Positions 32,901-35,900 of a DNA stretch of 64,000 bases are shown piece by piece. This DNA is from Escherichia coli. Its GTDB lineage: Bacteria > Pseudomonadota > Gammaproteobacteria > Enterobacterales > Enterobacteriaceae. The number at the start of each line of letters is the position of its first letter. Position 1 is the stretch's first letter. The position numbers are program-made. The stretch lies in assembly GCF_024298765.1 (NCBI RefSeq), contig NZ_CP101210.1. One strand, written 5' to 3'.

Positions 32901-35900
32901 ATCCCATAAATGGATAGCTTCGATGATATACCGCCGCGGAAGATGGTCGGGAAGTTTATTCATGGGGAATATCCTTATACGTTCTCAGAACAGGCAGCAA
33001 AAAAACAAATGAGATCAAGGTAATATATCTTCACTTGCAGGCTTGAACAGCAGAAAATTTGCGAGCATGATCGCAATTATTTCACTGCCAGGGATATCAA
33101 TGGCTTCCAGTAAATCGCTACAGCAGGCAATTGCCAATATAAAAATCTGGCACAAGGGTGAACAGCGCGCGCCGCATAAGCCATTGTTATTGCTATACGT
33201 ATTAGCGGGATACCTGAATGGACATCCGCGCCTTTTCGATTATGGATCGGAAATCTACGAACCTCTGCACAGTTTACTGGAACGTTTTGGGCCACAGCGT
33301 TCACAGTACCGACCTGATATGCCGTTCTGGCGATTACAAGGCGACGGATTCTGGCAATTACACAATGCCGAGCTTTGCTCAACAGCAGGGAGCAGCCGAC
33401 AACCGCCAGTGAAAGAACTGAACGAATACCACGTTGCAGGCGGTTTCGATGAACAGCACTACGCCCTGGTAACCGGCAATAAAAAACTCATCAATACTCT
33501 GGCGCAACAGATACTCGAAGCGCACTTCACCGAGAGTATTCAGGAAGAAATTGCTGACGAGCTGGGTTTTGATCTCCAGCAAATCCGTAAACAGCGCGAC
33601 CCGTTATTTCGCAAAAATGTATTACGCGCTTATAACTACCAGTGCGCGATATGTGGCTTTAATATGCGCCACGACGACACCACCGTCGCGCTGGAAGCGG
33701 CGCATATTAAATGGAAACAGCACGGCGGTCCTTGTGAAATTCCTAATGGCCTGGCGCTTTGCGCAATTCACCATAAAGCCTTTGATAAAGGATCGATTGG
33801 CCTGGACGAAAATATGCGGGTACTGGTATCAGATGCGGTAAACGGCGGAGGGATCGTTGAGAGATTATTCTGGGATTTTGACGGGAAAACTATTGCGTTG
33901 CCGCAGGTGCGTAAAAATTACCCTTATGAGGTGTTTGTAGAGTGGCATCGGAAAGAGGTTTTTAGGGGGTGAGGTTGATAACTATCGCAGTATGTTCAAT
34001 ATTGCTGACATAATCAGTGCAGGATCTTGCCGCTAGTTTACAACTCGCCTTCGATAGCGGCGCAAAACGAGTTCTGTTGCCGATATCCTCGGCTATGGAT
34101 ATTCCAACAGTTCCGGCAGAGTTGTTTACCAAGTTTCAGGTAAGTTTTTACTCAGAACCGGTTGATGCGGTTTATAAGGCGCTGGATGTGAATTAACACA
34201 TTCCTCAGCTTATTTACAAAAGGATTATTCCCATTTGATATAATATCAGTGCCAATTTACTTTTTTCAATGGAATATATCTCGACTAAATAACAATAAAA
34301 CTTATCGCTAATGGATTAAATAAACAATTTTCTAATTCATTTCACCACCTTTGATATAGAAATTGATGGTGTTGTCGCTGCCATTGCTTATGGTGATGAT
34401 AAAATCCACGTTTCTGGATCGTTGCGTAGAAAATCATCACTACCTTGATATTTTGATGCGATATAATCATACCGTTCCGTAGTACCAATTTCAATTTCAG
34501 GCTAAACCCCAACATTAAAAAAATTAGAGTTATTCACTGATTATATTATCAATAATATAATCAGTGAATAACATGAACTATATAATAAATTGCTCTAATC
34601 ATTTCCCTTACGAATATATGGGCCAAAAGTCCAAGAATCATAATAAGGGTGATGGACTAATTTTTCATTAAATCGAACACTATAAGTTAATTTTTTTATA
34701 TTTTTACGTACAGCATTAATACTGGGCAAAGAGGAAAGATAATCTATAAACTTATCGATAGTGATTTCCCCTTCGCAACACTCAAACCCATCAATGATAT
34801 TTTTCGCCATTTTTCCATTTTCATTTGTTTGATATATCACTCCAGGTATTCGTTGAAAAAAACTAGATAATGCATATTTGTCCGCTACATATATATCATC
34901 CACATGATATTTCCCACCGAGCATAGTTGTAGTAACAATAAGCTTATACACACCTTTGGGTTGCCATGTTGATGGTAGTTCGAATTCTTTAATGATCACA
35001 TCAAGATGATTAAGATAATGTTCAGAAATTCGATTTATTTGTTGAAAATAAGAACGCATAAATTTATTATTATGATCATGTATTAATGAGCTATCTCCAA
35101 CGATGTTATACACTTGCTGATAGTACTTACCATAATATATTGGTTGACCATTTGATTTTAGTTCTGTAAAAATCAAACAATCATCCAGGAGAATCACGCA
35201 ATCGCACTGATAATTAGCATGAGCATCAATTGGAGAAGCTTTAATCCCCGCATCACGAACTTGTTTTATAAATTGTTGTTCATGAAATCGCCCTTTACTT
35301 GCTTGAGAAATTTTTTTGGAACCAAATAATGACATTAGAGAGCGAGTAACTGAGCTATTTGCTATTAATGCAGGCATTAAGCATAAACCGTCCATACAGG
35401 GAATAAATGGGCAATCATTAAGATCATGTGATTTTGAATTGAAGGTAAAATAATCTATCAGTTTTTTTGCTGCATCTGCTGCAATCCCCTTACGTTGAAA
35501 GAATGATAACCAACTCTCACGGCTTTTTATGATCAGCCAGCGATCCAACTGTAGGGGTATAGGTTTTGTCGATGAAAATCTTTTGCTCATTTCTTCTTTA
35601 GATAACTCGACTAAACATTGATAAGCGTGCACCCAATTAAATAATGATATATTCCCATATTCTTCATGAAGGTCATCAGGAGACATATTTTCCAACTCGC
35701 TTAGATGAAATGAGCTAAAAACGCCATCAGAATTTAAGTAAGATGGCATATGATCCTTTACCCAACTATTTAGATGAAAATGTTTGTTACTAAATTCATG
35801 AACTTCGCTATATAGATGTGACGCTCTCATCATTAGTCTATTTCTTGCAATCTCATAATCTCGGTATAAACAAAAACTATCAACCTCAAGAGAGTAAATG

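What the first reader, a model, noticed from the sequence alone, without database searches (positions are those of the whole stretch)
34009..34197. Possible Lon-like protease C-terminal remnant beside the HNH genes
A start-less reading frame encodes ...GAKRVLLPISSAMDIPTVPAELFTKFQVSFYSEPVDAVYKALDVN, which resembles the conserved extreme C-terminus of S16/Lon-family proteases. If real, it would be the last trace of a displaced system, possibly a Lon-like defence component.
Basis: inference. Interest (0 to 1): 0.3.

Follow-up and report, generated by a model that had tools for sequence, protein, structure and literature searches.

The report
Leftover end of deleted BREX gene
The short reading frame is the dead, 214-base tail of brxL, left when a 14.6-kb deletion removed the BREX anti-phage system from the leuX defence hotspot of E. 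coli; it is an ordinary gene fossil shared by about 7% of sequenced strains.

Summary
The frame at 34017-34196 matches the last 57-59 residues of BrxL, the Lon-related AAA+ protein of type 1 BREX (NCBIfam E=2e-23, PADLOC E=6e-19, solved BrxL structures E=1e-21). Its match to true Lon proteases is not significant (E=0.26 and 0.73).

Other E. coli strains (ECOR29, ATCC 43896) carry at the same site, right after the same HNH gene, a membrane-protein gene and then intact brxA-brxB-brxC-pglX-pglZ-brxL.

In the window a roughly 14.6-kb deletion joins a 6-bp microhomology (TATCGC) just after the HNH stop codon to brxL codon ~606. The remnant therefore starts at 33983, not 34009. It also carries a 57-bp in-frame deletion between GTRCAGGA repeats and a nonsense codon (34011-34013). 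A decayed 5' piece of a BREX-linked PLD-like gene follows at 34295-34482.

The same scar is present in 360 of 5,426 complete E. coli genomes, including UTI89; 345 have a full-length brxL. Changes among the copies look neutral, and one copy has a second stop codon. RefSeq already marks it as a pseudogene.

Verdict: a non-functional remnant, of low interest. The neighbouring uncharacterised 682-aa nuclease-like gene is the more interesting object.

The parts
33983..34016 (+). brxL remnant, fragment A (codons ~606-616 of 694). It includes the 6-bp junction microhomology TATCGC (33983-33988) and a premature TAA (34011-34013) where the intact gene has AAA.
   Evidence: blastn 33983-34024 against ECOR29 brxL 19910-19951, 83% identity, E=1e-5. 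One tblastn alignment covers brxL 606-694. Base-level alignment and translation. Junction allele.
34017..34196 (+). brxL remnant, fragment B: the last 59 codons plus the stop codon. Positions 34017-34024 (GTGCAGGA) are the surviving copy of the repeat that flanks a 57-bp in-frame deletion.
   Evidence: 93.9% identity to ECOR29 brxL 20001-20181. 8 synonymous and 3 non-synonymous differences from intact alleles.
33973..33982 (.). Retained spacer between the stop codon of the HNH gene and the deletion junction. This is also where cargo starts to differ between strains.
   Evidence: Matches to other haplotypes end at window 33975-33988. Different cargo begins here in L012, L013 and L014.
34197..34294 (.). 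Retained spacer between brxL and the PLD-like gene, from the ancestral BREX-PLD arrangement.
   Evidence: Window 34017-34479 aligns to ATCC 43896 locus L003 19001-19484 at 84.5% identity.
34295..34482 (+). Decayed 5' remnant (codons 1-62) of the PLD-like gene that follows brxL in ATCC 43896. The ATG is now ATA, and indels split the similarity across three frames.
   Evidence: tblastn places PLD residues 1-16, 13-37 and 37-62 in three frames, E=1.8e-14. Nucleotide alignment. The intact protein hits Pfam PLDc_2.
33043..33972 (+). Intact left neighbour: the phosphorothioated-DNA-binding HNH restriction endonuclease (RefSeq places the start at window 33100).
   Evidence: NCBIfam NF045808, 438 bits against a cut-off of 180. 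Pfam HNH_2. RefSeq annotation.
32313..32963 (-). Second HNH endonuclease gene (216 aa). It is intact here but partly deleted in many other strains.
   Evidence: Pfam HNH. Window 32419-32989 has no counterpart in ECOR29. Annotated as an HNH pseudogene.
34529..34572 (.). Perfect 20-bp-stem hairpin between the remnants and the 682-aa gene. It looks like the terminator of the 682-aa gene cassette.
   Evidence: Terminator-like site on the minus strand. RNA fold of -26 kcal/mol, z=-7.3.
34595..36643 (-). AT-rich 682-aa gene that now occupies the slot to the right of the remnants. It is uncharacterised and has a PD-(D/E)xK nuclease-like C-terminal half.
37269..37343 (-). Duplicated piece of the leuX flank plus the last 23 nt of tRNA-Leu (37321-37343). 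This is an old attachment-site copy that marks the inner edge of a further leuX island.
   Evidence: 94.7% identity to ECOR29 27336-27411, which overlaps tRNA-Leu. Sequence. No complete tRNA in the window.

Best explanation
The feature is a non-functional pseudogene fragment: 214 bp (10%) of brxL, the last gene of a type 1 BREX phage-exclusion operon that once sat here in the leuX-anchored defence hotspot of E. coli.

The ancestral order was nanC-nanM-nanS, HNH, PT-DNA HNH endonuclease, a membrane/NucS-like gene, brxA-brxB-brxC-pglX-pglZ-brxL, and a PLD-like gene.

One illegitimate recombination event joined a TATCGC hexamer 10-16 bp after the HNH stop codon to a TATCGC hexamer in brxL codons ~605-607. 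It removed about 14.6 kb: the membrane-protein gene, five BREX genes, and the first 1,814 bp of brxL.

The stump then decayed further. It lost 57 bp between two GTRCAGGA repeats and gained an AAA-to-TAA nonsense codon. The PLD-like gene downstream was cut to its first 62 codons, lost its ATG and picked up frameshifts.

The remnant does nothing. It persists because it is short and harmless and is inherited with its neighbours.

Shown here: the homology, the synteny, the breakpoints, the shared junction in 360 genomes, and a neutral-looking substitution pattern. Inferred: the order of the events, and that the stump is not expressed as a protein.
For: Identity: BrxL profile hits cover exactly the C-terminal end of the models, and the fragment matches solved BrxL chains.

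Synteny: ECOR29 (L002) and ATCC 43896 (L003) have the full BREX-1 operon directly after the same HNH gene. Window 32990-33981 equals L002 4347-5338 at 98%, and window 34017-34197 equals L002 20001-20181 at 94%, so L002 5339-19909 is missing.

Breakpoints: the 6-bp microhomology is seen by comparing the window with strain HS4 (L014) and with brxL. No other BREX gene trace exists anywhere in the 64-kb window.

Single origin: the junction, the 57-bp gap and the TAA are identical in all six sampled copies plus UTI89, and 360 of 5,426 genomes carry the junction.

No constraint: differences of the five other copies from the window's, summed over pairs, are 1 synonymous and 6 non-synonymous, against 50 and 15 in the adjacent HNH gene (Fisher p=0.002). 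The yak-strain copy (L004) has a second nonsense codon, GAA to TAA.

Expression signals: there is no Shine-Dalgarno-like sequence before the GTG, and the only upstream promoter-like match is a weak 9-of-12 site at 33975-34003.

Annotation and literature: RefSeq already flags the frame as an incomplete pseudogene. BREX is reported in E. coli only at hotspots #1 and #37, and #37 is the leuX hotspot (PMC10121019; PMC12707154).
Against: In five of the six copies examined, the 59-codon frame after the TAA is still open and begins with a possible GTG start. No terminator is predicted between the HNH gene and the remnant, so it is probably transcribed by read-through, and translation cannot be ruled out from sequence alone.

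The substitution test rests on only seven changes, and the pairwise comparisons are not phylogenetically independent.

No intact brxL in the E. coli set is closer than about 94.5% to the remnant. The exact donor allele was therefore not found, and part of the divergence may date from before the deletion.
Confidence: 0.94

Rival explanations
1. The 59-codon frame is a functional small gene. [quoted passage not shown]
For: The frame is open in five of six copies. It probably lies on the read-through transcript of the HNH gene, since no terminator is predicted before 34529. The BrxL C-terminal domain mediates tail-to-tail dimerisation of rings (PMC10164562). An over-expressed 707-807-nt 3' brxL fragment in Salmonella changed transcription globally (PMC9009780).
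Against: The stump covers only about 59 of the roughly 182 residues of the C-terminal domain, so independent folding is unlikely. There is no ribosome-binding site. The GTG is simply the ancestral Val codon. The ratio of non-synonymous to synonymous changes is 6:1, and one copy has an internal stop. The Salmonella fragment was 4-5 times longer and was driven by an engineered promoter.
Confidence: 0.03
2. The remnant is kept as useful homology. The brxL 3' end, together with the HNH gene, would act as a conserved flank that lets cassettes of defence genes be swapped in and out of the hotspot by homologous recombination.
For: Cargo differs immediately after the brxL stop codon. It is the PLD-like gene in L003, a 330-aa hypothetical in L002, and a Dcm methyltransferase cassette in L004, which has the scar but diverges exactly at 34197. 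Cargo also differs within 16 bp of the HNH stop codon.
Against: This would be a by-product, not a selected function. At 214 bp and 94% identity to extant alleles it is a poor recombination substrate. No re-acquisition event was observed. The pattern is equally explained by independent insertions and deletions in a hotspot.
Confidence: 0.03
3. The frame is a remnant of a true Lon/S16 protease, or its resemblance to one is due to chance.
For: A weak Pfam Lon_C hit, E=0.26, and a PDB Lon hit, E=0.73.
Against: The BrxL-specific models score about 20 orders of magnitude better and match end to end at their C-terminus. The nucleotide identity to annotated brxL genes at the syntenic site is 94%.
Confidence: 0

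Closest known systems
BrxL of type 1 BREX at the E. coli leuX hotspot (e.g. ECOR29 WP_001193073.1, ATCC 43896 WP_001193075.1; solved homologue: Acinetobacter BrxL, PDB 8EMH/8EIL)
   Same: It is collinear with residues 606-616 and 636-694 of the 694-aa protein. Fragment B is 94% identical in DNA, sits at the same chromosomal site on the same strand, and has the same stop codon.
   Different: Only 10% of the gene survives. The N-terminal domain, the AAA+ ATPase domain and two-thirds of the C-terminal domain are gone. It also has a 19-codon internal deletion and a nonsense codon, and it has no BREX partner genes.
Lon protease (MEROPS S16) C-terminal proteolytic domain, Pfam PF05362
   Different: The sequence similarity is below threshold (11.2 bits against 21.1). 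BrxL has no Ser-Lys dyad and is a DNA-binding ring, not a protease.
Other brxL stumps in E. coli, annotated 'S16 family serine protease' pseudogenes (strain E200086, 330 bp, cut by IS3; strain LHM10-1, 459 bp, cut by IS1)
   Same: They are also 3'-terminal brxL leftovers of a decayed BREX locus.
   Different: They come from independent events, at a different locus, and were made by IS insertion rather than by a microhomology deletion.
Engineered 'brxL 3' remnant in the Salmonella StySA BREX locus (PMC9009780)
   Same: It is a C-terminal brxL fragment left in place at a leuX-anchored BREX island.
   Different: It is 707-807 nt, covers the whole C-terminal domain, and was over-expressed from a cat cassette, which had global transcription effects. 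The natural stump here is 214 bp and broken.

Membership tests
BrxL (protease Lon-related BREX protein, NCBIfam TIGR02653 / PADLOC BrxL) | Significant, collinear sequence match to the family profile | tested here: met
   E=2.3e-23, model positions 619-675 of 675. E=5.6e-19, positions 624-680 of 680. PDB BrxL E about 1e-21.
BrxL (protease Lon-related BREX protein, NCBIfam TIGR02653 / PADLOC BrxL) | Full-length protein with N-terminal domain, AAA+ ATPase domain and C-terminal domain (whole-protein score at least 628 bits) | tested here: not met
   The score is 82.5 bits against a cut-off of 628.25. Only codons ~606-616 and 636-694 remain. It is a member by descent only, that is, a pseudogene.
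Type 1 BREX system | Co-located brxA, brxB, brxC, pglX, pglZ and brxL | tested here: not met
   tblastn of all ECOR29 BREX proteins against the whole window finds only the brxL tail. The six genes are present at the syntenic site in L002 and L003.
Lon protease, MEROPS S16 (Pfam Lon_C PF05362) | Score above the Pfam gathering threshold for the proteolytic domain | tested here: not met
   11.2 bits against 21.1, E=0.26. PDB Lon 7P6U E=0.73.
Lon protease, MEROPS S16 (Pfam Lon_C PF05362) | Ser-Lys catalytic dyad | not testable with these tools
   The part of the domain that would carry the Ser is deleted. For intact BrxL the published structure reports no conserved Lon active-site motif (PMC10164562).
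Processed pseudogene / gene remnant | Truncation relative to intact orthologues at the same site, disabling lesions, and relaxed constraint | tested here: met
   5' truncation, a 57-bp deletion and a TAA codon. An extra stop in L004. Non-synonymous to synonymous ratio of 6:1 against 15:50 in the neighbouring gene, p=0.002. RefSeq pseudogene flags.

The most novel reading that the evidence does not exclude
The scar haplotype is as common as intact BREX (360 against 345 of 5,426 genomes) and almost always travels with the 682-aa nuclease-like gene. On this reading it is not just debris: the stump is translated from the read-through transcript of the PT-dependent HNH gene into a 59-aa BrxL C-terminal peptide that disturbs the ring-ring assembly of BrxL. 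That would affect BREX systems arriving on mobile elements, or at the second BREX hotspot.
Probability: 0.03. Interest if true: 0.45.

Novelty: already known. Interest (0 to 1): 0.12.

Why it matters
It matters little on its own. It is a clean, base-resolved example of how a large defence system is lost from the leuX hotspot: one microhomology deletion followed by slow decay. It also shows that loss scars are about as frequent in E. coli as the intact system.

In practice, the 'hypothetical protein', 'peptidase' and 'S16 family serine protease' pseudogene labels in RefSeq at this site could be renamed as a brxL fragment. Defence-system surveys could use such stumps to count past BREX carriage. 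The scar is also a convenient marker for tracing recombination at hotspot #37.

Tried and rejected
1. Chance similarity or a true Lon protease. Rejected, because the BrxL-specific profiles and the 94% DNA identity to annotated brxL far outweigh the sub-threshold Lon_C and PDB Lon hits.

2. The 35 bp between the HNH gene and 34017 as unrelated filler or an IS trace. Rejected, because this stretch is brxL sequence from 57 bp further upstream.

3. Other BREX fragments elsewhere in the window. None were found by tblastn.

4. The same scar in other species. An exact junction pattern scanned over one genome for each of 100,044 species gave a single hit. That hit is a 4.2-kb contig of a 'Lachnospiraceae' MAG that is 99.1% identical to the window, so it is a mis-binned E. 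coli contig. The scar therefore appears confined to E. coli. The limits are that the scan needs an exact match and sees only one genome per species.

5. A closer intact donor allele in E. coli. None was found above about 94.5%.

6. A promoter, ribosome-binding site or terminator that would make the stump a separate gene. Nothing convincing was found.

7. Literature. BREX at leuX (hotspot #37) is described, but the papers read do not mention this remnant.

Full report
**Observation.** The ORF listing reports 34017..34196 (+), 59 aa, ending ...GAKRVLLPISSAMDIPTVPAELFTKFQVSFYSEPVDAVYKALDVN. It has no proper start. The frame opens after a TAA at 34011-34013, and the GTG at 34017 corresponds to a Val codon (GTA) of the intact gene.

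**Identity.**
- The 57-aa peptide hits NCBIfam TIGR02653, 'protease Lon-related BREX system protein BrxL', at model positions 619-675 of 675 with E=2.3e-23.
- It hits the PADLOC BrxL model at positions 624-680 of 680 with E=5.6e-19.
- It hits the solved Acinetobacter BrxL structures (8EIL, 8EMH, 8EMC) at residues 620-678 of 679 with E about 1e-21.
- Canonical Lon is not significantly matched: Pfam Lon_C scores 11.2 bits against a cut-off of 21.1, E=0.26, and PDB Lon 7P6U gives E=0.73.
- The 'Lon-like' impression is therefore correct only through BrxL. BrxL's C-terminal domain has a Lon/RadA-like fold but no protease motif, and the protein works as an ATP-dependent DNA-binding ring (PMC10164562).

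**Synteny.** The window is E. coli; a 356-bp query across the remnant is 100% identical in several strains.
- In ECOR29 (L002) the gene order is nanC, nanM, nanS, an HNH remnant, the PT-DNA-binding HNH endonuclease, a membrane protein gene, brxA, brxB, brxC, pglX, pglZ, brxL, and further on tRNA-Leu (leuX).
- ATCC 43896 (L003) has the same order, with a PLD-like gene directly after brxL.
- Window 32990-33981 equals L002 4347-5338 at 98%, and window 34017-34197 equals L002 20001-20181 at 93.9%. Nothing in between is present.
- tblastn with every ECOR29 BREX protein against the whole 64-kb window finds only the brxL tail.

**Anatomy at base level.**
- The 35 bp between the conserved left flank and 34017 looked like filler but is brxL sequence. 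Window 33983-34024 aligns to L002 19910-19951 (83%, E=1e-5), and tblastn joins brxL residues 606-694 to 33984-34193 in one alignment with a 19-residue gap (E=1.2e-28).
- The remnant is therefore 33983-34196, 214 of the 2,085 bp of brxL. It lacks 57 bp (19 codons, in frame) that lay between two copies of GTRCAGGA. It also carries AAA-to-TAA at 34011-34013.
- The large deletion (L002 5339-19909, about 14.57 kb) has its junction in a 6-bp microhomology. Strain HS4 (L014) reads GATAACTATCGC|GTCCC after the HNH stop, brxL reads GCGCTTATCGC|TTTATGTTC, and the window reads GATAACTATCGC|AGTATGTTC.
- Downstream, window 34197-34479 is about 80-85% identical to the brxL-PLD spacer and the first 62 codons of the PLD-like gene of L003. 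In the window the ATG has become ATA, and indels spread the similarity over three frames. Homology stops at about 34482.
- An AT-rich cassette (28-36% GC) follows. It has a perfect 20-bp hairpin at 34529-34572 and a 682-aa gene on the minus strand.

**Population picture.**
- The junction (query 33900-34100, at least 80% covered) is present in 360 of 5,426 complete E. coli genomes.
- A near-full-length brxL is present in 345 genomes.
- About 60 more genomes hold other brxL stumps. Strain E200086 has a 330-bp stump cut by IS3 beside a pglZ fragment. Strain LHM10-1 has a 459-bp stump cut by IS1 near rclR. These are independent losses at another locus.
- All six scar copies compared (the window, CT30, HY220605, CFSAN061768, SCU-115, SWYHX138.33gt) and also UTI89 share the same junction, 57-bp gap and TAA. 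This points to a single origin.
- Differences of the other five copies from the window's, summed over these pairwise comparisons, are 1 synonymous and 6 non-synonymous. One of the non-synonymous changes is GAA-to-TAA in the yak strain. The adjacent HNH gene shows 50 synonymous and 15 non-synonymous changes (Fisher p=0.002). The numbers are small and the comparisons are not independent.
- Against intact alleles the stump differs at 8 synonymous and 3 non-synonymous codons, while the two intact alleles differ from each other at 4 and 0. Most of the 6% divergence therefore reflects a distinct ancestral allele. No closer intact allele exists in the E. coli set.
- An exact-pattern scan of one genome per species (100,044 species) found the junction only in a 4.2-kb 'Lachnospiraceae MAG' contig that is 99.1% identical to the window, which is a binning artefact.

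**Context.**
- The region between nan/fim and leuX is the leuX-anchored defence hotspot #37 of E. coli. It is the most occupied of 41 hotspots and one of only two that hold BREX (PMC10121019; PMC12707154).
- Within 16 bp of the HNH stop codon, different strains carry McrBC plus Type I RM (in either orientation), a membrane protein plus Wadjet, a membrane protein plus BREX, or the scar.
- Directly after the brxL stop codon the cargo also varies.

**Function.**
- The best-supported reading (0.94) is that the stump is an inert molecular fossil.
- It covers about one third of the roughly 182-residue C-terminal domain, has no ribosome-binding site, and shows relaxed constraint. RefSeq already flags it as an incomplete pseudogene, under the names 'hypothetical protein' or 'peptidase'.
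- It is probably transcribed as part of the 3' end of the HNH gene's mRNA, because no terminator is predicted before 34529. This is an inference.
- Two rivals remain at about 0.03 each: a translated 59-aa BrxL C-terminal peptide, and a role as a homology anchor for cassette exchange. The first takes its only support from a much longer, over-expressed brxL 3' fragment in Salmonella (PMC9009780).

**Novelty and score.** The kind of object (a pseudogene stump of a known defence gene in a known hotspot) and its family are known, and the frame is already annotated as a pseudogene. What this work adds is the assignment to brxL, the exact breakpoints, and the frequency. Interest is 0.12.

**In passing.** The 682-aa gene to the right (34595-36643, minus strand) is the more interesting item.
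- It has no Pfam, NCBIfam or PDB sequence match.
- It belongs to a small family of proteins of about 650 aa (227 representatives) with invariant D481, E494 and K496.
- The AlphaFold model is confident (pLDDT 90.8, pTM 0.90).
- It occurs in about 334-359 E. coli genomes, close to the number carrying the scar (360), and it is itself broken in some strains.

Noticed in passing
[not shown]
   Followed up: partly
window 34295-34482 (+): A second gene fossil: the first 62 codons of a PLD-like gene that follows brxL in ATCC 43896. Here the ATG has mutated to ATA and three frames are needed to follow the similarity.
   Followed up: yes
window 29251-30307: A 1,057-bp insertion splits nanM in this window only. 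It carries a 322-aa DDE transposase ORF (29307-30275, minus strand; Pfam DDE_Tnp_1_5 and DDE_Tnp_1). The flanks are contiguous in ECOR29 and CT30 apart from a short overlap of about 9 bp.
   Followed up: partly
window 32313-32963 (-) and 32419-32989: The 216-aa HNH gene is intact here, but about 570 bp of it is deleted in ECOR29, ATCC 43896, UTI89 and others, where RefSeq marks a 105-bp HNH pseudogene. This is another independent decay event in the same island.
   Followed up: partly
L009 (SFGN01000178.1, 'MAG: Lachnospiraceae bacterium W0P5.016'): This 4.2-kb contig of a Lachnospiraceae metagenome-assembled genome is 99.1% identical to window 33145-37334. It is almost certainly a mis-binned E. 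coli contig.
   Followed up: yes
L008 5845-6174 (strain E200086); L010 7000-7458 (strain LHM10-1): These are independent brxL 3' stumps at another chromosomal site, cut by IS3 and IS1 respectively. One lies beside a pglZ ('alkaline phosphatase') fragment. BREX loss that leaves a brxL tail is therefore recurrent in E. coli.
   Followed up: partly
window 33973-33988 and loci L012, L013, L014: The 3-16 bp after the stop codon of the PT-DNA HNH gene form a recurrent boundary. McrBC in either orientation, Wadjet, BREX or the scar begin there in different strains. The HNH gene end itself is found in 1,814 of 5,426 genomes.
   Followed up: partly
window 37269-37343: A duplicated leuX flank plus the last 23 nt of tRNA-Leu, with no complete tRNA anywhere in the window. 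To its right lie CP4-like island genes (cbtA/cbeA and others in the CT30 annotation), so a further island is integrated between this old attachment site and the real leuX.
   Followed up: partly
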